Assembly: GCA_001785865.1 (NCBI GenBank)
Contig: MFUZ01000009.1
Span: 15,309 to 79,308, forward strand
Length of the DNA stretch: 64,000 nt
Origin: Candidatus Nomurabacteria bacterium RIFCSPLOWO2_01_FULL_41_18
GTDB taxonomy: Bacteria > Patescibacteriota > Minisyncoccia > Phycocordibacterales > UBA9973
Reading direction: 5' to 3'
Shown one piece after another: positions 2,694-61,044 of this stretch (its first letter is position 1; the number at the start of each line of letters is the position of its first letter). A program made the position numbers and the translations under genes. The notes beneath the pieces were generated by a model. That model had not been told where the DNA came from. It made no database searches and worked only from the letters and a program-made list of their open reading frames with translations.

Positions 2694-4349
2694 ATGGATA
2701 TGATAACTCAAACATTTATAGAATTGTGCGAATGGGATTCATCAAGATTTTTGATTTTTTCTGACAATGTATTTGGAACTTTGATTTATTATTCGCATTT
2801 TCTTGCAATGATTTTGGCCTTGGTGGTTGGTTTCTTTGTATTTTCTCAAAATAAAAAAGGTTTAGTAAATAAATTATTATTTTTTATAATGCTTTTTTTC
2901 GCGACATGGACATTCCTCGACCTTGTCCTTTGGGCAAATGAAAGGCCTGATTTTATAATGTTTTTTTGGTCGTTAATTCTTTTAGTGGAACCCCTTGTGT
3001 ATGCTCTATGTGTGTACTTTATTTATGTTTTCATTGAAAAAAAGGATATAAGCTTTAAAAAAAAGATTGGAATATTTTCGTTGTTATTACCAATCATAGT
3101 TTTATTACCAACACAGCTTGCACTTGTTTCATTCGATCTATCAAACTGTTTTAGAGAACCAATTGAAGGACCCATAGCTACATATTATATATATATAACA
3201 GAAACCATATATTTATTCTGGATACTCCTATACGCTTTTAAGGCGTACTACAAAGCCACCGAAATAATGCGAAAGCAAATCATTCTTGTTACTTTTGGTA
3301 TAATACTTTTTCTTTTAAGCTTTGTTTCAGGAAATATAATCGGAAGTATAACTGAGGATTGGACTCTTGCACAAATCGGTCTTTTCTGTATGCCTCTGTT
3401 TGCACTATTTTTAGGGTACATGATTGTAAAGTTTAAAACATTTAATGCAAAATTGATTGGGACACAAGCTCTTGTTGCTGCTCTTGGATTTTCAGTCCTA
3501 GGAATTATTTTCATTCGAAGTATAGACAATGTTAGAGCAGTTGCAATAGCAACACTTCTACTTATTATAATTATGGGTGACCTCTTGATAAGAAGTGTTA
3601 AAAGAGAAATAAAGCAGAAAGAAGAGCTAGCCAAACTTAATGTTGAACTTGAAAAATTGATCAAACAACGTGAAAGCTTGATGCATCTCATCAACCACAA
3701 AGTGAAAGGTTCGTTTACTCATTCCAAATATGTCTTTGCGGGCATATTGGATGGAACTTTTGGAGACATAAATGAAGAAGTCAGGAGGAGATCCGAACAG
3801 GGCCTCGAGGCAAACGACAACGGCATCAAGACCATTGATCTGATTTTGAACGCTGCGAACTTGCAACAAGGTCTCATCAAATACGAAATGAAAAAGGTAG
3901 ACTTTAAAGATGTAGTCTCAAAATCATTCTCTGAAAAAAAGATCCCCGCGGAAAAGAAGGGCCTGAAAATAGAAAAGGAAGTTGGGGAAAGTGATTATAC
4001 CGTACCAGGAGATGCTTTCTGGCTACAAGAAGCGGTAAATAATCTTATCGACAATTCCGTCAAATACACCAAGGAAGGAGGGATATTCATCTCGCTCAAG
4101 CGGAATGCTGGAAAAATATTGCTGTCAGTCAGAGATACCGGCATGGGCATCACCCCGGAAGACAAGAAGAACTTGTTTACCGAAGGCGGCCGCGGCAAGG
4201 ACTCGATCAGGGTAAACGTGGACTCGACCGGCTATGGCCTCTATTCGGTCAAACTCATCATCGAAGCGCATAAGGGCAAAGTCTGGGTAGAATCTGAAGG
4301 CGAAGGCAAGGGCTCCACTTTCTATATCGAATTGCCAGCGGTAGAATAA
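2694..4349 (+). CDS. Sensor histidine kinase with about 8 N-terminal TM helices (orphan, no adjacent response regulator)
   Basis: C-terminal HATPase_c motifs (NLIDNSVKYT, DTGMGI, GYGLYSVKLIIEAHKG); coiled-coil linker; hydrophobic N-terminal half. Confidence 0.8.
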   Translation: MDMITQTFIELCEWDSSRFLIFSDNVFGTLIYYSHFLAMILALVVGFFVFSQNKKGLVNKLLFFIMLFFATWTFLDLVLWANERPDFIMFFWSLILLVEPLVYALCVYFIYVFIEKKDISFKKKIGIFSLLLPIIVLLPTQLALVSFDLSNCFREPIEGPIATYYIYITETIYLFWILLYAFKAYYKATEIMRKQIILVTFGIILFLLSFVSGNIIGSITEDWTLAQIGLFCMPLFALFLGYMIVKFKTFNAKLIGTQALVAALGFSVLGIIFIRSIDNVRAVAIATLLLIIIMGDLLIRSVKREIKQKEELAKLNVELEKLIKQRESLMHLINHKVKGSFTHSKYVFAGILDGTFGDINEEVRRRSEQGLEANDNGIKTIDLILNAANLQQGLIKYEMKKVDFKDVVSKSFSEKKIPAEKKGLKIEKEVGESDYTVPGDAFWLQEAVNNLIDNSVKYTKEGGIFISLKRNAGKILLSVRDTGMGITPEDKKNLFTEGGRGKDSIRVNVDSTGYGLYSVKLIIEAHKGKVWVESEGEGKGSTFYIELPAVE

Positions 4350-53812: not shown

Positions 53813-56410
53813 TTACTCTTCAATTTTGAATACTAGAGTAGCTTCGCCGGTGTTATAAACACTATCGTGAGCGATTACTTTGAGTTCATTCTCTTTTTGC
53901 AAGTCTTCTATATCTCTCGGAATAAAAGAAAAACCGGTGGCGGAATCTGAAGTCCCTAAGTATGTGTTGTTTACGAAAACATCCATCCTAATAATCGGAT
54001 ACTTCGTAGAAGTACCCACTTTTACATTTATTGTTCGGTTGGGCTGGTAGGTGGTTTTACTATTAGGCTCAATGATGGTAATGATGGTCTTTAGCTCACC
54101 AGTGTGTATATCATCTTCCATCCTTGGTTTATCAGAAGCAGTCGTGATTTGGAATCGTCCTTTGTTTTGAGCCCACCAGTTTTGGATTGGAATTTCCCAG
54201 TGTTCAAATTGTGGATTACTACTCGGGTTTTCTGGTGGAGCTCCTAAAATATCGTTTCTATCCACCCAGTAAAGGATGGAGTGGACATTGGTTATCACTT
54301 TTTCCTCCAAAGTTTCTTTCGGGGTGTATTCCGTAGCTAGTTTTCCAGAAATTCTATCTATGAAAAAACTTTCGTTTCCCATCCAGCTTCCCCGGAGCGC
54401 CGGCTTTACTATTTCTGGATCAACATCGAGATTTGGTTCTTCAAACCTTTCGTCTGGCAAATTTTCGAGAGCGGTGCTTATAAATTTATTCCAAATCGGT
54501 CCGGCGACAGCCACACCTCCTTTTTTCATTGGCTCGTTGTCGTTGTTGCCCGCCCAAACTCCGACAACGATAGAAGGCGTGTAACCGATGGTCCACGCAT
54601 CTTTGTTACTGTTGGTGGTTCCGGTCTTTACGGCGACCTCGTGCCCAGGGATAAGAAGAGCAGAGCGCGCCCCGAAGGTCGGGATGCGAGATTTTTCGTC
54701 TGACATTATGTCGGAAATGGTCAAGGCAGTGTTCTTGGGAATAACTTGTTGGGTATTGGGCTTGAACTCTTCTAATATATCCCCGTTCAAGTTTTCAATT
54801 CTTAAAATTCCAGTATAAGGGTTTCTCATTCCATCGTTCGCAAAAACTCCGTAAGCGGAAGTCATGTCGAGGAGAGAAACTTCTCCGCCTCCGATGACCA
54901 GTGTAAGTCCATAACGTCCGATATCGCCCAAAGTGCTGATACCCATGTCTTCGGCTGTCTTGAGTGACGAGGGCAGACCGGCCAAATAGAAAAGCTTTAC
55001 TGCTATCACGTTGATCGATTGCGCGAGCGCGTCACGGAGAGTCATCGGCCCGCGGGATTTTCCATCGTAATTGTCCGGCATATAGCAATCCTTCTGATTG
55101 CGTCCTGGAAGGGCCCTGCCGTAGGCGTTGCAAGTGGTTTGAAATTCGGTAGGCAGGTCAAAGAGCACTGTGCTCGGAGTAAAGCCCTTGTTGAAGGCTG
55201 TGGCGTAAATGAAGGGCTTAAAAGATGAACCTGGCTGCCTGGCCGCGGTAGCCACGTTGAAATTTCCATCTATTTCTTTATCGAAATAGTCTCGAGAACC
55301 AATCATGGTGAGGATCTGCCCGGTTTTCGGGTCGATTGCAACCAATGAAGCATTTCCTCCGTTCCAATCTTTCTCATTTTTAAGAGCACCCTCCTTCACG
55401 ATCAGTTCCCCCTTTTCTTGCAACTCATAATCGAGCGTGGTGATGATCTTCAATCCACCCCTTTCCACCATCTCTCTCCCATATTTTTCTTCTAGATAGT
55501 TCTTTATAAAGAAAACAAAGTGGGACGCCTTGATCCCGCTCGCAGACTGCGGAGAAAAAGCCACAACCTCCTTTTTTGCACTGTCGTATTCCGCCTTGGT
55601 TATAAAGCCAAGCTCCAGCATGCGTGAGAGCACCAGATTTTTCCTGGCTTCCAATTTTTCCTTATTTTTTCCGTAAGGAGACAAGACGGTCGGAGATTGC
55701 GGGATAGCCGCGAGATAAGCGGCTTCAGCTAGTGTGATGTCGAGGGCCCTTTTATTGAAATAAGTTTTGCTGGCTTCTTCTACCCCATAGATGGTTCCTC
55801 CATAAGGGGCTTCGTTCAGATAGTGCTCCAGAATTTTTTCTTTCGGCATGGTGTTTTCTAATTTTATGGCTAGGACCCATTCCTTTATTTTGCGAGATAT
55901 GGTCACCTTTTGGGTAAGTAAGGTGTTTTTTATCAATTGCTGGGTGATGGTGGATCCGCCGGTAACTCTTTTGCCGGTCAGTTTGGCCCATATCGTAGCC
56001 CGGATGATCGAAGTGATCCTGATTCCGCCATGATTGTAAAATTCTGAGTCTTCGATGGCCACTGTCGCGTTCATGATGTTCACTCCCATATCTTCGTAAG
56101 GAATATCCGTTCGCTTTGTTTCGCGATGCATATCATAGAGGAGTATTTCCCCGGTCCGGTCATATATTTTTACCGAGTTTTCGATCCTTCTTTCGTTAAA
56201 GGAATTGAAATCCGGTATTTTTAAGGAAGAAAGCCAGATGGTGACCACACTTACCATGACAATAAAGACGCCAGCGGTAAAAAGCATCAGATTCTTCAAA
56301 AATCCTTTTTTCCTATAAAATCTCATAACTACAGCGAAAATAGTGGCCTCAAATTTGTCGAGATTCTTTGCCATCTTGCTGTTTCTTATTTTTTTGTATA
56401 TTTCTTTCAT
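53813..56410 (-). CDS. mrcA: Class A penicillin-binding protein (bifunctional glycosyltransferase/transpeptidase) with a C-terminal extension
   Basis: GT51 motifs EDSEFYNHGGI, GGSTITQQL; TPase motifs SSFKP, SIN, KTGT; N-terminal TM. Confidence 0.9.
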   Translation of the reverse strand: MKEIYKKIRNSKMAKNLDKFEATIFAVVMRFYRKKGFLKNLMLFTAGVFIVMVSVVTIWLSSLKIPDFNSFNERRIENSVKIYDRTGEILLYDMHRETKRTDIPYEDMGVNIMNATVAIEDSEFYNHGGIRITSIIRATIWAKLTGKRVTGGSTITQQLIKNTLLTQKVTISRKIKEWVLAIKLENTMPKEKILEHYLNEAPYGGTIYGVEEASKTYFNKRALDITLAEAAYLAAIPQSPTVLSPYGKNKEKLEARKNLVLSRMLELGFITKAEYDSAKKEVVAFSPQSASGIKASHFVFFIKNYLEEKYGREMVERGGLKIITTLDYELQEKGELIVKEGALKNEKDWNGGNASLVAIDPKTGQILTMIGSRDYFDKEIDGNFNVATAARQPGSSFKPFIYATAFNKGFTPSTVLFDLPTEFQTTCNAYGRALPGRNQKDCYMPDNYDGKSRGPMTLRDALAQSINVIAVKLFYLAGLPSSLKTAEDMGISTLGDIGRYGLTLVIGGGEVSLLDMTSAYGVFANDGMRNPYTGILRIENLNGDILEEFKPNTQQVIPKNTALTISDIMSDEKSRIPTFGARSALLIPGHEVAVKTGTTNSNKDAWTIGYTPSIVVGVWAGNNDNEPMKKGGVAVAGPIWNKFISTALENLPDERFEEPNLDVDPEIVKPALRGSWMGNESFFIDRISGKLATEYTPKETLEEKVITNVHSILYWVDRNDILGAPPENPSSNPQFEHWEIPIQNWWAQNKGRFQITTASDKPRMEDDIHTGELKTIITIIEPNSKTTYQPNRTINVKVGTSTKYPIIRMDVFVNNTYLGTSDSATGFSFIPRDIEDLQKENELKVIAHDSVYNTGEATLVFKIEE

Positions 56411-56584
56411 TGTTCGAATTATACAACTTGATACAATATAATTACGTCTTTCGTTCGCAATAATCTAAGTACACTTAATTATTGCTCACTCATTAGTAAT
56501 TATAGCAGAGAAATCACTAAAATTATATTTTTCTGCTGTATTTTTAGTCCAAATCCTGAAGTTATTCAGGGGTATTGAGATATT

Positions 56585-56620
56585 ATGAGGGTATTGATTT
56601 TTTTCTACTTTTGTGGTTAG
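56585..56620 (+). CDS. Putative Phe/Tyr-rich leader peptide MRVLIFFYFCG (pheL-like)
   Basis: 11-codon ORF with TTT TTC TAC TTT; stop 15 nt before the antiterminator segment and 35 nt before a strong terminator; 96 nt upstream of the prephenate dehydratase gene. Confidence 0.45.
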   Translation: MRVLIFFYFCG

Positions 56621-56634
56621 GTTAGGTAAATAAA

Positions 56635-56680
56635 CCCTGGAGTAACGGAATGTCCGAGCTCCGCTGGAGCTCGTTCTTTT
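56635..56680 (+). promoter_or_regulatory. Attenuator: antiterminator segment (ccctggag) plus intrinsic terminator cgagctcc-gct-ggagctcg + TTCTTTT in the pheA-like leader
   Basis: 8-bp GC-rich stem 56655-56673 followed by a T-run; alternative pairing 56639-56648 with 56654-56662 uses the terminator 5' arm. Confidence 0.5.
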
Positions 56681-56716
56681 ACAACAGGAAAACAAAGTTT
56701 CAGGAGTTTAACAACC

Positions 56717-57616
56717 ATGAAAATCACGTTACTAGGTCCTCTCGGGGCCAATTTCTCGGATTTGGCTCGTAAGGATTTCGGTAGAATATTCGATGATCAC
56801 TTCCTTCAGACTAACGATCGATCCAGTTTTTTGTTGGTCGATCGAAATGAGGATGTTTTGCCAAGCGTCATCAAAGATGGTGGGTTGGGGGTGGTGGCGA
56901 TGAATACGGAAGCTGAAGGAGTGTACGAGGCACCTTTCAGAAAAGTGGTGGCCCTACTCGACCATTATGACAATTCCGGACGGTGTCCAGTTGCACTTAT
57001 CGCTGCTCTTGAAAAGAGAGTTCGCTTCACTCTCATGGTAAAAAAGGGGACAGAATTTCAAGAGATCCAGGAAGTATGTGCGCATCCAAAATCTCTCGGG
57101 GCGTGCAGAAATAATATCCGGGCACATGGCTGGCGACCTATCGAATGCAACAGTAACGGCAAAGCCGCGGAATATGTTGCTCGTGATCCGAGATATACCA
57201 AGACTGCAGTTCTTGGTCCACGCGAAGCCGTGGAAACTTTCAAAGAGTTGAGAGTTGTACCCGGATATGAGGCTTTGGAAGACAATCCCGCGACGACAAT
57301 TTTCCATTTGTGGGGGCCGAGGTCGAGAAAGCGCATTGCAGGGCTTCGGGAAAACAACATGATTGTTTTAGCTTGCAGGCTTTTCCACAAACCCAACGCA
57401 AAGGGAAGTGTTATGAACAGTTTTGGCAAAAGGGGGATTAACATGCTTTATGACACCCAGGTTTTCGTCGGTGCGGCCAAATATGACCACATCTTTCTTT
57501 ACGAATGTCGGAAGGATCAAGTTATTGCGCAACGGGAAGCCTTACAGGAAGTTAGCAAAAATTCTCTTGTGGAGCGTTGCCTTATGCTGGGTCCTGTCCC
57601 TATTGTTAAAGCCTAA
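56717..57616 (+). CDS. pheA: Prephenate dehydratase (PDT domain + C-terminal ACT-like regulatory domain)
   Basis: ITLLGPLGANFS, VCAHPKSLGACRNNI (compare SHPQALAQC), NPATTIFHLWG (compare N.TRF.VL), C-terminal ACT-like GSVMNSFGKRGINMLYDTQVF. Confidence 0.65.
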   Translation: MKITLLGPLGANFSDLARKDFGRIFDDHFLQTNDRSSFLLVDRNEDVLPSVIKDGGLGVVAMNTEAEGVYEAPFRKVVALLDHYDNSGRCPVALIAALEKRVRFTLMVKKGTEFQEIQEVCAHPKSLGACRNNIRAHGWRPIECNSNGKAAEYVARDPRYTKTAVLGPREAVETFKELRVVPGYEALEDNPATTIFHLWGPRSRKRIAGLRENNMIVLACRLFHKPNAKGSVMNSFGKRGINMLYDTQVFVGAAKYDHIFLYECRKDQVIAQREALQEVSKNSLVERCLMLGPVPIVKA

Positions 57617-57678
57617 CCGCTCGTCAACCGAGTAACAGGCGAAATTCCTAATCAATTAAAATAGATAGTACCAAGAGG

Positions 57679-57712
57679 GCCAGCACAACACGTTGCTGGC
57701 TTTTCCCTTTTT
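57679..57712 (+). terminator. Rho-independent terminator after the pheA-like gene
   Basis: gccagca-caacacgt-tgctggc followed by ttttcccttttt. Confidence 0.75.
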
Positions 57713-57757
57713 ATATATTAAAACTTTGTAAGTTTTAATTGGTATCTTGAATATCAT

Positions 57758-57785
57758 TTGACAAAATTACACTATTTGATATCAT
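57758..57785 (+). promoter_or_regulatory. Sigma70-like promoter (TTGACA - 16 nt - TATCAT) for the tyrS leader
   Basis: Read in sequence; predicted transcription start about 57792, at the leader ORF AUG. Confidence 0.5.
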
Positions 57786-57791
57786 ACAAGT

Positions 57792-57860
57792 ATGAGTCTT
57801 TTAATCAAATTTTCTGTTAACTATTATTACCGCCAAACGGGACGGTCTTCTTTTTGCTAA
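57792..57860 (+). CDS. Putative tyrS leader peptide MSLLIKFSVNYYYRQTGRSSFC with three consecutive Tyr codons
   Basis: 22-codon ORF with TAT TAT TAC at 57822-57830, directly overlapping attenuator segment 1 (accgcc). Confidence 0.5.
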   Translation: MSLLIKFSVNYYYRQTGRSSFC

Positions 57861-57916
57861 TTAATTTAACTTTTAAAGCACAAAAGACCGCCCCGCAAGG
57901 CGGTTTTTTGTTTTTA
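57829..57916 (+). promoter_or_regulatory. Transcription attenuator with four alternative pairing segments upstream of tyrS
   Basis: Segment 1 accgcc (57829-57834), segment 2 gacggtctt (57841-57849), segment 3 aagaccgcc (57884-57892), segment 4 ggcggt (57899-57904). Pairing 3:4 is a terminator followed by a T-run; 2:3 is an antiterminator (8 of 9 bp); 1:2 is an anti-antiterminator. Confidence 0.6.
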
Positions 57917-57967
57917 TGTTATGAAAATGAATTTTATAAATTTATCACAATATGCTAGAATCGGGAT

Positions 57968-59150
57968 TATGAAAGTTATTACCGATGAGAAGAAAATAGA
58001 CGAGCTTTTAACTCGAGGGGTGGAGAACGTCTACCCCAACAAGGAAGCTCTCAAGAAGGTTTTGATGTCCGGGCGAAAAATCAAACTCTATCTTGGGATT
58101 GACCCGACAGGTGGAATTTTACATCTTGGACACTTGGTTCAATTTCTCAAATTAAAAAAATTCCAAGACCTTGGTCATGAAGTTGTTATTCTTATTGGTG
58201 ATTTTACAGCGCAAATAGGAGATCCCACCGACAAACAAACAACCCGAAAACCGCTTACTCATAAGCAGGTCGTAGAGAATGCCAAGGGATACAAAAAGCA
58301 GATTAGTAAAATTTTGGATTTAAAGAAATTAAATATGAACTTTGTTCATAATGCCAAGTGGACTAACAAGCTTTCTCCAGAAGACATGTTGGAATTAGCC
58401 TCCAACTTTACAGTTTCCAACCTGCTTAGTCGAAGTATGTTTCAAGAAAGACTTAACACCGGTCGGGAAGTGCATGTTCATGAATTTCTATACCCAATTT
58501 TTCAAGCATATGATGCTGTGACTATGGATGTTGATCTGCAGATCGGGGGCAATGACCAAATGTTCAACATGCTAGCTGGTCGTGACTTGATGAGAAGAAA
58601 AAAACATAAAGAAATGTTTGTCCTGACTACTAAATTACTTGTTGACCCAACCGGCAAAAAAATGGGAAAAACTGAAGGGAATATGATTACCTTGAATGAT
58701 TCTGCCAACAACATTTTTGGTAAGATAATGAGCTGGCCTGACAGCATGATCGCTTCAGGTTTTGAAATATTTACTGGATGGGATTTGAACACTCTTCAAA
58801 TAGACAGCCCGCGTGATCAGAAAATGAAACTTGCCCACGAGGTCGTAAAAATTTGTCAGGGAGAACAAGCCGCAAGGGAAGCAGAAGAGAATTTTATTAA
58901 CACCTTCCAGAAAAAGGAGATTCCAGTAGAGATGGAAGAAATCAAGGGCCAAGAAGGTGAATTGGTGAGCGAAGTTTTGGTAAAAAATAAGATTTTATCT
59001 TCAAAAGGAGAGTGGCGCAGGTTATGCGAGGGGAATGGGGTGCATGACTTGGAGAAAAATGAAACAATTGCTGATCAAAATCTTAAAATTGACGGAAACC
59101 TGACACTCAAAATAGGGAAAAAGAGATTTATAAAAATCACAGCAAAATAA
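57968..59150 (+). CDS. tyrS: Tyrosine--tRNA ligase
   Basis: HIGH-class motif GIDPTGGILHLGHL, KMGKT (KMSKS), C-terminal S4-like domain; start taken at MKVITDEKK because the ORF-track ATG at 57921 abuts the attenuator T-run with no RBS. Confidence 0.9.
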
Positions 59151-59152
59151 AA

Positions 59153-59189
59153 ACACCCCAAAGATAAATTAGGGGTGTTTTTATTTTTT
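59153..59189. terminator. Bidirectional rho-independent terminator between tyrS and the convergent minus-strand gene
   Basis: acacccc-aaagataaatta-ggggtgt flanked by an A-run upstream and a T-run downstream. Confidence 0.75.
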
Positions 59190-59191
59190 AA

Positions 59192-59407
59192 CTATCTATC
59201 TTTGTCTGGGTCTTCCTCATCTAATCCAAAATCGGTTATGCCTTCTGGCGCATCCAACGGTTCACCCAGCTCATCTTCATCGGCGCCAATTTTGAAACCA
59301 TCTTCTACTTCTTCCTCTTCTTCGTAACTCATATGTTTTTTATTTTCAGCCAGAGGCTGATCCGCCTTTGGCGGAAATTTAATTTGTAATTTCCTACTTT
59401 GTATCAA
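59192..59407 (-). CDS. Small highly acidic hypothetical protein
   Basis: 71-aa ORF downstream of ruvC; Glu/Asp-rich. Confidence 0.3.
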   Translation of the reverse strand: MIQSRKLQIKFPPKADQPLAENKKHMSYEEEEEVEDGFKIGADEDELGEPLDAPEGITDFGLDEEDPDKDR

Positions 59408-59455
59408 AATATAAAAAGCTTGGCAATAGGGAAAAGACTTAAAATGTGGATAAGT

Positions 59456-59959
59456 CTAAGAACGTATGTGTGCAAAGGCGGTCAGCGCGATGGCAATGGC
59501 GTCTAGCTCGTCGTCGGATTTCTTCGAGTCGTCTACTTCTACCAGAATTTTCACCATTTTATTTATTTGTGTTTTGTCTGATCTACCATAACCGGTCGTC
59601 GCCACTTTTATTTGCAAAGGAGTCGCCTCAAAAATTTTAAGCCCCGCCAAAGATGCCTCATAAACTACTACTCCGCGCGCTTCGGCGACGCGCATCACCG
59701 TTTTTTGGTTGGTATTTAAAAATAAAGTTTCAATAGCTAAAACTTCCGGCTTGTATTTTTTTATTATATTTCTCACTTCTTCACCGATTAGTTTTAGCCG
59801 TTCCGAAAATTCTAATTTAGCAGAAGTCTTGAAACATTCTGAAAAAATCACATGCTCCCTGCCCTGAGCGTGGTCGAAGGGTTTTTTGCCGCCATTATCT
59901 TTTTCTAATATTGCAACACCCAACCTCTCAAACCCCGGATCGATTCCCAAAATTTTCAT
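59456..59959 (-). CDS. ruvC: Holliday junction resolvase RuvC
   Basis: MKILGIDPGFERLGVAIL head motif; about 30-aa insertion (KKPFDHAQGREHVIFSE...) relative to typical RuvC. Confidence 0.85.
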   Translation of the reverse strand: MKILGIDPGFERLGVAILEKDNGGKKPFDHAQGREHVIFSECFKTSAKLEFSERLKLIGEEVRNIIKKYKPEVLAIETLFLNTNQKTVMRVAEARGVVVYEASLAGLKIFEATPLQIKVATTGYGRSDKTQINKMVKILVEVDDSKKSDDELDAIAIALTAFAHIRS

Positions 59960-60000
59960 GGTTCTATTATATCACCATGACCCTGAGTTTTTCGAATGGG

Positions 60001-61044
60001 TCATAATAATTTTTTCTGATTTTCTTTCAAATCAAACCCAAGATGTTCATACGCTTTTTTTGTAGCAACTCTCCCTCGAGCAGTGCGTTCCAAAAGCCCG
60101 AGCTGAATTAAATATGGCTCTACCACTTCTTCTATTGTTGCTTCTTCTTCCGAGAGGGCCGCCGCCATGGTTTTGAGTCCTACTGGTCCGCCATTAAATT
60201 TCTCAATCAATATTTCCAAGAATTTTCTATCAGAGGAATTGAGCCCTATGTTGTCTACGGCAAGCATGTTGAGGGCATCCTTTACTATTTTTTGATCCAG
60301 ATTTTGCTTTTCGCTTTTTTTGTTCACTTGAGCAAAGTCGCGCGCTCTTTTCAAAAAATAATTTGCCGTGCGAGGAGTGAATCTACTTCTTTTGGCAATT
60401 TCTTTTAAGGCATCTTCTTCGAGGGTAATATTTAAAAGCTTACTTGACCTCTCCACAATTTTTCCAATTTCTTCATTTGAATAAAATTCCAATCTAAAAA
60501 CTCCACCAGAGAATCTGGAACGAAGGGGGGAGGAGATAAGAGCGACACGGGTGGTTGCTGCAATGAGTGTAAAAGGCGGAAGATCAAGCTGGATAGTGCG
60601 GGCCGATGGGCCTTTACCAATAATGATGTCTAGGACACCAGACTCCATGGCCGGATAGAGTATTTCCTCAACCATTTTATTTAATCTGTGGATTTCATCT
60701 ATGAAAAGAATATCACCCGAAGCAAGGTTTGTAAGTATGGAAGCCAGATCACCCACTTTTTCAATCGCGGGTCCAGAAGTTATTTTCATTTGTCTGCCAG
60801 TCTCCTTGGCGATGAGGTGGGCGAGTGTGGTCTTGCCTAGCCCGGGAGGTCCATAAAATAGGATATGTTCAGGTATGTGCCCGCGTTCTTCCGCCGCTTT
60901 CAGTAGGATTTTTACGTTGTCTTTTATGTGTTTTTGGCCGATATATTCATCCCAGCGGGTAGGGCGCAGAGTCTGATCGAGGACGACATCCTCATTCTTG
61001 CTTACCTCTTTAGAATTGGGGTCTTTTGTTTTTGGGCTTGACAT
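60001..61044 (-). CDS. ruvB: Holliday junction branch-migration helicase RuvB
   Basis: LRPTRWDEYIGQ..., Walker A GPPGLGKTTLA, Walker B ILFIDEIHR, sensor motifs. Confidence 0.92.
   Translation of the reverse strand: MSSPKTKDPNSKEVSKNEDVVLDQTLRPTRWDEYIGQKHIKDNVKILLKAAEERGHIPEHILFYGPPGLGKTTLAHLIAKETGRQMKITSGPAIEKVGDLASILTNLASGDILFIDEIHRLNKMVEEILYPAMESGVLDIIIGKGPSARTIQLDLPPFTLIAATTRVALISSPLRSRFSGGVFRLEFYSNEEIGKIVERSSKLLNITLEEDALKEIAKRSRFTPRTANYFLKRARDFAQVNKKSEKQNLDQKIVKDALNMLAVDNIGLNSSDRKFLEILIEKFNGGPVGLKTMAAALSEEEATIEEVVEPYLIQLGLLERTARGRVATKKAYEHLGFDLKENQKKLL

What the first reader, a model, noticed from the sequence alone, without database searches (positions are those of the whole stretch)
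57758..57970. Leader-peptide (ribosome-stalling) attenuator with three consecutive Tyr codons upstream of tyrS
A near-consensus promoter (TTGACA-16-TATCAT) sits immediately upstream of a 22-codon ORF, MSLLIKFSVN-YYY-RQTGRSSFC. The ORF overlaps four RNA segments arranged as in the trp and pheST attenuators. Segment 1 (accgcc, 57829-57834) overlaps the third Tyr codon. Segment 2 (gacggtctt, 57841-57849) is complementary to segment 3 (aagaccgcc, 57884-57892). Segment 3 also pairs with segment 4 (ggcggt, 57899-57904) to form a GC-rich intrinsic terminator followed by a long U tract that ends a few nucleotides before tyrS. Two in-frame ATGs follow the terminator, at 57921 (the ORF-track start, abutting the T-run with no RBS) and 57968 (MKVITDEKK, with a GGGA 6-9 nt upstream); 57968 is taken as the tyrS start. 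A ribosome stalled at the Tyr codons would mask segment 1 and leave 2:3 (antiterminator) to form. A ribosome that reaches the stop at 57858 would mask segment 2 and allow the 3:4 terminator. This is the classic logic for sensing charged tRNA-Tyr by translation. Tyrosyl-tRNA synthetase genes are normally described as T-box regulated (Firmicutes) or unregulated at this level. A Tyr-codon leader-peptide attenuator on tyrS, apparently on a leaderless transcript, is unusual and in this lineage possibly undescribed.
Basis: partly seen in the sequence, partly recalled or inferred. Interest (0 to 1): 0.85.

Follow-up and report, generated by a model that had tools for sequence, protein, structure and literature searches.

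The report
Possible tyrosine-sensing attenuator before tyrS
A roughly 210-base insert just upstream of the tyrosyl-tRNA synthetase gene of one uncultivated Nomurabacteria species has every sequence part of a classical tyrosine-sensing leader-peptide attenuator, but the closest relative lacks it and the gene keeps its own promoter, so it is a plausible, unproven, species-specific add-on rather than the main control of tyrS.

Summary
The anatomy is real. There is a near-consensus promoter P1, a 22-codon ORF starting 6 nt after the -10 (the leaderless layout this genome uses for real genes), three tandem Tyr codons, a strong terminator T2, and a 21-nt upstream segment that is 17/21 complementary to T2 (0 of 2000 shuffles; no other terminator in the window has this). 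Folds with a masked ribosome footprint behave as an attenuator should.

Three things weaken the reading. (1) tyrS starts at 57969, not 57968. It has no usable Shine-Dalgarno sequence. It does have its own extended -10 promoter, P2, 7 nt upstream and downstream of T2; this layout recurs in 43 of 80 relatives. (2) None of 156 related tyrS upstream regions carries the unit. That includes L171 (TyrS 93% identical, same PBP-PDT-tyrS order), where the PDT terminator runs straight into P2. The unit is a ~210-nt indel at an insertion hotspot. (3) All copies found come from one population and are identical, so covariation cannot be tested.

Best reading (about 0.4): a species-specific, leaderless Tyr-codon attenuator that adds inducible read-through from P1 to constitutive P2. 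Rivals are an unrelated small gene (0.3) and promoter/terminator debris (0.2). It would be a new member of a known kind. Interest is moderate.

The parts
57675..57704 (+). T1, the intrinsic terminator of the upstream PDT-like gene (56717-57616). It is orthologous to the terminator that directly precedes the tyrS promoter in L171.
57706..57916 (.). Approximate extent of the species-specific indel (palindrome, P1, mini-ORF, T2). It is absent from L171 and is bounded by TTTTTAT at both edges.
   Evidence: direct reading of the two sequences
57717..57739 (.). Perfect 10+3+10 palindrome, ATTAAAACTT-tgt-AAGTTTTAAT, about 20 nt upstream of the P1 -35. It could be an operator or an insertion scar. Function unknown.
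   Evidence: I3
57758..57785 (+). Promoter P1: -35 TTGACA, 16-nt spacer ending in TG, -10 TATCAT.
   Evidence: 11/12 with TG. About 50 nt are significantly similar to L003 1743-1797 (0/500 shuffles).
57792..57860 (+). Leaderless 22-codon mini-ORF, MSLLIKFSVNYYYRQTGRSSFC, plus stop. Its ATG lies 6 nt after the -10.
57822..57830 (+). Three tandem Tyr codons, TAT TAT TAC.
57829..57834 (+). Segment 1, ACCGCC. It is identical to the core of segment 3 and can pair with segment 4.
57838..57849 (+). Segment 2, CGGGaCGGTCTT. It is the 5' arm of the antiterminator and pairs with 57884-57895.
57855..57880 (+). Central A/U-rich hairpin (TGCT..TTAA / TTAA..AGCA) that tops the long hairpin.
57880..57915 (+). 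Terminator T2: segment 3 (57884-57892), loop, segment 4 (57899-57904), then the tract TTTTTTGTTTTT.
   Evidence: I2
57933..57961 (+). Promoter P2 of tyrS: TTTATA, 17 nt, TGcTAGAAT. It ends 7 nt before the tyrS ATG, so the tyrS mRNA is leaderless. It is conserved in L171 and, as an extended -10 placed 6-8 nt before the ATG, in 43 of 80 relatives.
57969..59150 (+). tyrS, 393 aa. This is the start used by gene callers and matched by homologues. The in-frame ATG at 57921 would add 16 aa, and only on read-through transcripts.

Best explanation
The unit is a species-specific, leaderless leader-peptide transcription attenuator that senses Tyr-tRNA charging. It sits on top of a tyrS gene that already has its own promoter.

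Proposed mechanism (inferred):
1. P1 fires and the RNA begins at the AUG of a 22-codon ORF, which 70S ribosomes translate at once.
2. When charged tRNA-Tyr is scarce, the ribosome stalls with Tyr codon 1 or 2 in the A site and covers segment 1 (ACCGCC). Segment 2 pairs with segment 3, so segment 4 has no partner. RNA polymerase then runs through T2, over P2, and into tyrS.
3. When tRNA-Tyr is plentiful, the ribosome reaches the stop codon at 57858 and covers segment 2. The 3:4 terminator forms and transcription stops at about 57912.
4. With no translation at all, segment 1 pairs with 4 and segment 2 with 3 in one long hairpin that abuts the U tract. This should also terminate.
5. Basal tyrS expression comes from P2 as a leaderless mRNA. 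The attenuator would only add inducible transcription from the stronger P1.

Shown by tools: all sequence parts, their better-than-chance statistics, and the thermodynamic consistency of the three states.

Inferred only: the transcription start site, translation of the mini-ORF, stalling, read-through, and any physiological effect.
For: - P1 matches 11/12 with TG.
- The ATG lies 6 nt after the -10. That is the same layout as 10 real leaderless gene starts in the window: 14 motif hits against 4.5 expected. Shine-Dalgarno sequences are rare here.
- YYY is the only such run among 405 short ORFs in the window, and the background rate is 0.18%. It lies directly before tyrS.
- T2 is the strongest terminator in the window, and the only strong one that neither follows nor lies within a long ORF.
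- The antiterminator arm is 17/21 complementary (0 of 2000 shuffles), and other terminators lack such an arm. The pairing extends into the T2 loop (CGGG:CCCG), which is beyond what a simple copy of the hairpin would give.
- The antiterminator alone folds at -20.1 kcal/mol, z = -3.0.
- Folds with masked footprints give the antiterminator at Tyr1 and Tyr2, and the terminator at the stop codon or when unmasked.
- Only this unit, among about 1.2 Mb of related DNA, combines a leaderless short ORF with a strong orphan terminator.
- Precedents exist: classical attenuators on aaRS genes (pheST; Streptomyces trpS and leuS, PMC1262725; a His leader on hisS paralogues in bacilli, with a suggestion of recent capture, PMC2965389) and leaderless sensory short ORFs in mycobacteria (10.1101/834739).
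Against: - P2 lies between T2 and tyrS and is conserved, so tyrS does not need read-through.
- The unit is absent from all 156 related tyrS upstream regions. That includes L171 (TyrS 93%, same synteny) and L168 (87%).
- It is a ~210-nt indel at a junction that also collects other cassettes, namely PDT and PemK toxin-antitoxin. Its position next to tyrS is therefore not itself a coincidence that needs a functional explanation.
- All 7 assemblies that carry it are identical, so there is no covariation to test.
- With the ribosome at Tyr3, the model already favours the terminator.
- Read-through mRNA would have to start tyrS translation internally without a Shine-Dalgarno sequence.
- The YYY-tyrS match was the reason the region was flagged, so the evidence is post hoc.
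- No leader-peptide attenuator was seen in any other Patescibacteria DNA sampled here.
Confidence: 0.4

Rival explanations
1. The unit is an independent accessory small gene. P1, a leaderless 22-aa ORF (and/or a ~120-nt sRNA) and its own terminator T2 landed in the PBP|tyrS insertion hotspot. T2 simply insulates tyrS, which is transcribed from P2. The Tyr codons are a coincidence.
For: - The unit is a discrete ~210-nt indel relative to L171.
- The junction is a hotspot that also holds a PDT cassette, and PemK toxin-antitoxin plus PDT in L178.
- P2 is intact and conserved.
- T2 is very strong and has an A tract upstream, like a constitutive terminator.
- A perfect palindrome upstream of P1 suggests the unit has its own transcription-factor control.
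Against: - YYY in a given short ORF has a background of only about 0.2-0.5%.
- An ordinary small gene has no need for a 21-nt segment, inside its coding region, that is complementary to its own terminator. No other terminator in the window has one.
- No homologue of the unit was found in about 1.2 Mb of related loci.
- The peptide has no recognisable domain.
Confidence: 0.3
2. The unit is non-functional rearrangement debris. It is a duplicated promoter stretch plus two tandem, related terminator hairpins (ACCGCC-aaac-GGGaCGGT-CTTCTTTTT and GACCGCC-ccgcaa-GGCGGTT-TTTTGTTTTT) left by cassette insertion or turnover. The four-segment pairing is then an automatic by-product of duplicating a palindrome.
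For: - About 50 nt of P1 are significantly similar to a stretch in L003 between pemK and the PDT gene. A decayed copy also lies upstream of the window's own PDT gene.
- Segments 1 and 3 are identical, and segments 2 and 4 are similar (14/21 as direct repeats, by direct reading).
- The indel is bounded by TTTTTAT repeats.
- There is no conservation.
Against: - P1 is a near-perfect promoter with correct spacing, whereas the L003 version lacks a usable -10 (direct reading).
- Complementarity (17/21) exceeds direct-repeat identity (14/21) and reaches into the T2 loop.
- The in-frame leaderless ATG, an open frame through the Tyr codons and a stop placed just after segment 2 are unlikely together by chance (roughly 1e-4 by my estimate).
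- No significant similarity was found between the rest of the unit and the tyrS 5' end or the PDT leader.
Confidence: 0.2
3. The unit is a T-box or other ligand- or tRNA-binding riboswitch controlling tyrS.
For: tyrS is the classic T-box-regulated gene in Firmicutes (established knowledge). A terminator/antiterminator pair is present.
Against: - No Rfam family is matched at gathering threshold in the window. T-box is not even listed at E <= 10 in 57600-58050.
- Only about 90 nt lie between the transcription start and the terminator, which is too short for a Stem I.
- The 5' third is predicted to be unstructured.
Confidence: 0.02

Closest known systems
E. coli pheST attenuator (pheM leader peptide) and the trp operon attenuator (trpL)
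   Same: Both have a short ORF with tandem cognate codons. Four RNA segments give mutually exclusive antiterminator and terminator hairpins. The regulatory codons overlap segment 1 and the stop codon lies near segment 2. pheST shows that the scheme is used on an aminoacyl-tRNA synthetase gene (established knowledge; cited in PMC1262725).
   Different: - Here the leader ORF is leaderless, with no Shine-Dalgarno sequence.
- Segment 1 duplicates segment 3, so the ground state is 1:4 plus 2:3 rather than 1:2 plus 3:4.
- A conserved promoter lies between the terminator and the gene.
- The sensed amino acid is Tyr.
- The element is not conserved beyond one species.
Predicted classical attenuators on Streptomyces trpS and leuS (PMC1262725), and the His leader peptide on hisS paralogues in bacilli (PMC2965389)
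   Same: These are lineage-restricted leader-peptide attenuators on aaRS genes outside Proteobacteria. The hisS case was discussed as a recent capture or emergence.
   Different: Those were supported by conservation across at least two genomes or paralogues. This one is a singleton from one population.
Mycobacterial polycysteine leaderless short ORFs (10.1101/834739)
   Same: The sensory short ORF starts at the 5' end of the transcript, carries consecutive codons of one amino acid, and works by ribosome stalling that remodels downstream RNA structure.
   Different: [quoted passage not shown] The element here has an intrinsic terminator and would act on transcription.
T-box leader of Bacillus subtilis tyrS
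   Same: It has the same regulatory goal: more TyrRS when tRNA-Tyr is uncharged, achieved by antitermination.
   Different: The T-box senses tRNA directly through a ~200-nt structured leader. No T-box signature is present here.

Membership tests
Classical leader-peptide transcription attenuator | Short leader ORF with tandem codons for the amino acid cognate to the downstream gene | tested here: met
   YYY at codons 11-13 of a 22-codon ORF upstream of tyrS. YYY occurs in 1 of 405 short ORFs in the window and 0.18% overall.
Classical leader-peptide transcription attenuator | Credible transcription and translation start for the leader ORF | tested here: met
   The promoter matches 11/12 with TG. 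The ATG lies 6 nt after the -10, as at 10 real leaderless genes in the window. This is sequence evidence only. The start site has not been mapped.
Classical leader-peptide transcription attenuator | Intrinsic terminator between the leader ORF and the regulated gene | tested here: met
   T2 at 57880-57911 plus a T run, 53 nt before the tyrS ATG.
Classical leader-peptide transcription attenuator | Antiterminator that is mutually exclusive with the terminator and better than chance | tested here: met
   Arms 57829-49 and 57884-904 are 17/21 complementary, with 0 of 2000 shuffles reaching this. Other terminators are at chance level. The antiterminator fold is -20.1 kcal/mol, z = -3.0.
Classical leader-peptide transcription attenuator | Geometry: a ribosome stalled at the regulatory codons permits the antiterminator, and a ribosome at the stop codon permits the terminator | tested here: inconclusive
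   Constraint folds give the antiterminator at Tyr1 and Tyr2, but the terminator at Tyr3 and at the stop codon. The footprint size is assumed and no kinetics are modelled.
Classical leader-peptide transcription attenuator | The regulated gene depends on read-through, with no promoter between terminator and gene | tested here: not met
   P2 (57933-57961) ends 7 nt before the tyrS ATG. It is conserved in L171 and, as an extended -10 6-8 nt before the ATG, in 43 of 80 relatives.
Classical leader-peptide transcription attenuator | Conservation or covariation of the leader ORF and stems in orthologous loci | tested here: not met
   None of 156 related tyrS upstream regions has it. It is absent in L171 and L168. 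All 7 carriers are identical.
Classical leader-peptide transcription attenuator | Read-through responds to amino acid or tRNA charging | not testable with these tools
   This needs in vitro or in vivo assays. The organism is uncultivated.
T-box riboswitch (RF00230) | Match to the T-box covariance model (Stem I, specifier loop, T-box sequence) | tested here: not met
   There is no hit at gathering threshold in the window. T-box is not among the 38 matches at E <= 10 in 57600-58050.
Independent sRNA or small-protein gene | Own promoter and own terminator | tested here: met
Independent sRNA or small-protein gene | Homologues elsewhere, or a match to a known RNA or protein family | tested here: not met
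   No Rfam or Pfam match. No similar DNA in about 1.2 Mb of related loci, in the rest of the window, or in viral contigs.

The most novel reading that the evidence does not exclude
This would be the first amino-acid-sensing leader-peptide attenuator reported in Patescibacteria (the Candidate Phyla Radiation). It would be Tyr-specific, act on tyrS, run from a leaderless transcript, and use a design in which the terminator's 3' arm can pair with either of two identical 5' segments, so that read-through requires both to be sequestered (one by the ribosome, one by the antiterminator). It would also have been caught within a species-level time span as a ~210-nt gain or loss layered on a constitutive promoter, giving a snapshot of how attenuators are born or captured.
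Probability: 0.35. Interest if true: 0.6.

Novelty: new member of a known kind. Interest (0 to 1): 0.4.

Why it matters
If real, it would extend ribosome-mediated attenuation to an ultra-small, host-dependent bacterial lineage that mostly uses leaderless mRNAs. It would add tyrosine/tyrS to the short list of aaRS genes controlled this way. It would also document a very young attenuator sitting upstream of an older constitutive promoter, which bears on how such switches arise (compare the capture scenario in PMC2965389).

If it is not real, it is a useful caution. A complete-looking attenuator can appear at an insertion hotspot without any comparative support.

Tried and rejected
- **Rfam:** the whole window at gathering threshold, and the region at E <= 10. 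Only chance-level terminator look-alikes appeared.
- **Orthologue scans:** 80 loci from GTDB genomes and 80 from JGI metagenomes, plus nearest TyrS homologues from the 5.8-billion-protein set and their contigs. None carries the unit.
- **Exact-protein look-ups:** these returned only the same population, with identical DNA.
- **Second attenuator on the PDT gene:** I considered a Phe-rich leader peptide upstream of the PDT gene as support for a system of attenuators. I rejected it. In L171 the T-rich block is the only -35/spacer available for the PDT promoter, so it lies upstream of the transcript.
- **Tyr codons as a shifted copy of the tyrS 5' end:** I considered this because of a shared 9-mer, TTATTACCG. 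The alignment is not significant (95 of 500 shuffles).
- **Unit as a truncated second copy of the PDT leader:** not significant (58 of 300 shuffles).
- **Other relatives with YYY short ORFs:** L019 and L079 have them, but they are chance ORFs with no matching leaderless start (no hit); the L079 one is a TTG-start frame lying antisense to a short minus-strand ORF (direct reading).
- **General scan for leaderless short ORF plus terminator units:** besides this one it found four hits: L015, a false positive lying in the 3' end of a real gene; the related acidic small ORFs in L145/L149; and L050, which I did not examine.
- **Integron attC reading of the long hairpin:** rejected, because there is no GTTRRRY / RYYYAAC core (direct reading).
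- **Viral contig scan with a degenerate pattern:** no matches.
- **L118:** 100% TyrS identity, but it is a chimeric contig and uninformative.
Full report
**Source and setting.** The window comes from an uncultivated Patescibacteria genome, Candidatus Nomurabacteria bacterium RIFCSPHIGHO2_01_FULL_42_15 (names attached to P0001 and P0002). The local gene order is dnaN, a class A penicillin-binding protein on the minus strand (53813-56410), a prephenate-dehydratase-like (PDT) gene (56717-57616, Pfam PF00800, E = 6.7e-15), tyrS, a small acidic ORF, ruvC and ruvB.

**Checking the observation.**
- Promoter P1 is TTGACA, 16 nt, TATCAT, with TG one base before the -10. It matches 11 of 12 positions and is the best site in 55000-61000.
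- The ORF 57792-57860 encodes MSLLIKFSVNYYYRQTGRSSFC.
- Terminator T2 has 13 pairs followed by TTTTTTGTTTTT.
- The arms 57829-57849 and 57884-57904 are 81% complementary over 21 nt.

Three details need correcting.
- The tyrS ATG is at 57969, not 57968.
- GGGA lies only 2 nt from that ATG, so it is not a functional Shine-Dalgarno sequence.
- The minimum-energy fold of 57792-57920 is one long hairpin in which segment 1 pairs with segment 4 and segment 2 with segment 3 (-32.2 kcal/mol, z = -4.07). It is not the trp-like 1:2 plus 3:4 state, which is about 5 kcal/mol less stable.

**Is it more than chance?** Yes, on several independent counts.
- The antiterminator-like arm matches T2 at 17 of 21 positions. 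None of 2000 shuffles of the upstream 97 nt reaches that. Seven other terminator-like hairpins in the window reach only 8-12 matches to a 15- to 21-nt target.
- The fold without segment 4 is still unusually stable (z = -3.03).
- YYY occurs in 1 of 405 short ATG-ORFs in the window, which is this one. It occurs in 12 of 6572 across the window plus about 1.1 Mb of related loci.
- The motif TGnTAnnnT followed 6-7 nt later by ATG occurs 14 times in the window against 4.5 expected. Ten of those are starts of long ORFs, and the mini-ORF has the same layout.
- Shine-Dalgarno motifs are rare at gene starts here. A transcript that begins with AUG is therefore the normal way a first gene is translated in this organism.

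Between T2 and tyrS lies P2: TTTATA, 17 nt, TGcTAGAAT, ending 7 nt before the ATG at 57969. An extended -10 placed 6-8 nt before the tyrS ATG is present in 43 of the 80 GTDB relatives and is plain in the closest ones. tyrS is therefore a conserved leaderless gene with a promoter downstream of the proposed attenuator.

**Comparative evidence.**
- I collected 80 tyrS loci from GTDB genomes and 80 from JGI metagenomes, and further contigs through exact-protein look-ups.
- In almost all close relatives, tyrS diverges from the penicillin-binding-protein gene across roughly 40-50 nt that hold only the leaderless promoter.
- The window's lineage carries about 1.56 kb inserted at that junction: the PDT gene, its leader, its terminator T1, and the P1/mini-ORF/T2 unit.
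- The decisive comparison is L171 (a Logan assembly of SRR22388083). It has the same PBP(-), PDT(+), tyrS(+) order. TyrS is 93% identical over 214 residues and the PBP is 78% identical. There, the orthologue of T1 (GGCCAGCA...CTGGCTTTT) is followed directly by GAATTTTATAAATTT...AATATGCTAGAATC...ATG, which is P2.
- The window differs by about 210 extra nucleotides (about 57706-57916), bounded by TTTTTAT on both sides. I cannot tell whether the window lineage gained the unit or L171 lost it.
- None of 156 related upstream regions carries a comparable Tyr-codon leader. The two YYY ORFs found, in L019 and L079, are chance ORFs with no matching leaderless start; the L079 one is a TTG-start frame antisense to a short minus-strand ORF.
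- All seven assemblies that hold the window's PDT protein are identical across the intergenic region, so there is no variation to analyse.
- The junction is an insertion hotspot. The L003/L178 lineage holds a PemK toxin-antitoxin pair plus a PDT gene there.

**Mechanistic modelling.** I masked an assumed ribosome footprint (P site -12 to +15) and refolded.
- A site on Tyr codon 1 or 2: the minimum-energy fold is the 2:3 antiterminator plus the central hairpin, and no hairpin abuts the U tract.
- A site on Tyr codon 3: the terminator is marginally preferred.
- A site on the stop codon: segment 2 is covered and the terminator forms.
- No ribosome: segment 4 is paired, either to segment 1 in the long hairpin or to segment 3 in the local fold, and should terminate.

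The design has a twist on the textbook case. Segments 1 and 3 share ACCGCC, so read-through needs both copies hidden, one inside the ribosome and one in the antiterminator. The 2:3 helix extends into the T2 loop (CGGG:CCCG). As a result, complementarity (17/21) exceeds the direct-repeat similarity of the two hairpins (14/21 by direct reading). This argues against a simple tandem duplication of a terminator.

**Weighing the explanations.**
- *For an attenuator:* a near-consensus promoter, a leaderless in-frame ATG, a cognate triple codon with a 0.2-0.5% background, a stop codon placed just after segment 2, and a terminator-specific complementary arm are hard to obtain together by chance.
- *Against:* the gene keeps a conserved promoter after the terminator. 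The unit is dispensable in the nearest relative. It lies in a hotspot, which explains its position next to tyrS without invoking function. There is no conservation or covariation. The Tyr-tyrS match is also the post hoc reason the region was flagged.
- *My estimate:* about 0.4 for an add-on Tyr-sensing attenuator, 0.3 for an unrelated small accessory gene whose terminator insulates tyrS, and 0.2 for rearrangement debris. About 50 nt of P1 are significantly similar to a stretch between pemK and the PDT gene in L003.
- T-box and other riboswitch readings are effectively excluded.

**Comparison with what is known.**
- Leader-peptide attenuation of aaRS genes is established for pheST. It has been predicted for Streptomyces trpS and leuS (PMC1262725) and for hisS paralogues in bacilli, where recent capture or emergence was proposed (PMC2965389).
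- Leaderless sensory short ORFs are known in mycobacteria, acting on translation (10.1101/834739).
- Three full-text searches found no report of a tyrS leader-peptide attenuator and no paper combining the Candidate Phyla Radiation with attenuation or riboswitches among the top-ranked results. The library is incomplete.
- If real, the element is a new member of a known kind, with unusual context: leaderless, Tyr-specific, in the Candidate Phyla Radiation, and layered on a constitutive promoter.
- It fails two membership criteria: dependence of the gene on read-through, and conservation.

**Verdict.** The element is attenuator-like in every sequence feature that can be tested here, but it is a species-specific singleton placed upstream of tyrS's own promoter. 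Interest is moderate (0.4). The decisive data are transcript-end mapping and a Tyr-dependent read-through assay.

Noticed in passing
window 56635-56700; also L003 1863-1925, L171 2374-2435, L170 506-570, L184 about 650-715: A ~65-nt 5'-UTR motif, CCCUGGAGUAA.GGA..AAUCCGAGCUC....GGAGCUCGUUCUUUUACAACAGGAAA, is almost invariant upstream of PDT-like genes in five lineages, although the proteins are only 40-49% identical. It folds into a three-part stacked hairpin. It shows no compensatory changes because it is too conserved, and it has no Rfam match. It is a candidate cis-regulatory RNA of unknown ligand or partner, possibly more interesting than the flagged element.
   Followed up: partly
window 56411-57968; L168, L171, L174, L178: The junction between the penicillin-binding-protein gene and tyrS is an insertion hotspot. 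Most relatives have nothing there. L171 has a PDT cassette. The window has PDT plus the mini-ORF unit. L003/L178 has a PemK-family toxin-antitoxin pair plus PDT.
   Followed up: partly
window 56717-57616 compared with L171 2445-3325: The PDT-like protein is only about 43% identical between the window and L171, while the flanking TyrS (93%) and PBP (78%) are close. This suggests cassette replacement or very fast evolution. A lone PDT/ACT protein in a lineage expected to lack aromatic amino-acid synthesis is itself odd.
   Followed up: partly
whole window; tyrS loci L001-L080: Leaderless gene starts (TGnTAnnnT, 6-7 nt, ATG) mark at least 10 genes in the window, and tyrS in 43 of 80 relatives. 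Shine-Dalgarno motifs are rare.
   Followed up: yes
L084 about 2890-3000; L008 and L010 about 2900-3000: A roughly 90-110-nt insertion with ~15-nt terminal inverted repeats (AATCCCGTTAGAAGT ... ACTTCTAACGGGAT) sits exactly at the tyrS start codon, with ATGAA repeated at both ends. It looks like a miniature inverted-repeat element that targets the same spot.
   Followed up: no
window 57758-57810; L003 1743-1797; window about 56507-56540: About 50 nt starting at P1 are significantly similar to a stretch between pemK and the PDT gene in L003 (score 45 against 24 +/- 4; 0 of 500 shuffles). The L003 copy lacks a correctly spaced -10. A decayed copy lies upstream of the window's own PDT gene.
   Followed up: partly
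window 57717-57739: A perfect palindrome, ATTAAAACTT-tgt-AAGTTTTAAT, lies about 20 nt upstream of the P1 -35. It could be an operator or an insertion scar.
   Followed up: no
window 57921-57968: An in-frame ATG at 57921 is open through to the tyrS start. Read-through transcripts from P1 could therefore encode a TyrRS with 16 extra N-terminal residues. In L171 the same frame is closed by TAA 21 nt before the ATG.
   Followed up: no
L172 about 640-790 (upstream of its PDT gene) and L184 about 1890-1971 (downstream of its PDT gene): A shared ~80-nt sequence (AGAGAGCTGAT..TTGCGCTGTAAAAA...AAACACCAGCCCTCT) flanks PDT genes on different sides in two genomes. It may be a small RNA gene or a cassette boundary.
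   Followed up: no
L118 (Ga0209323_10100062) 1-740: This contig is 100% identical to the window's tyrS from codon 7 onward, but is joined upstream to unrelated GC-rich DNA at a short shared word. It is probably an assembly chimera.
   Followed up: no
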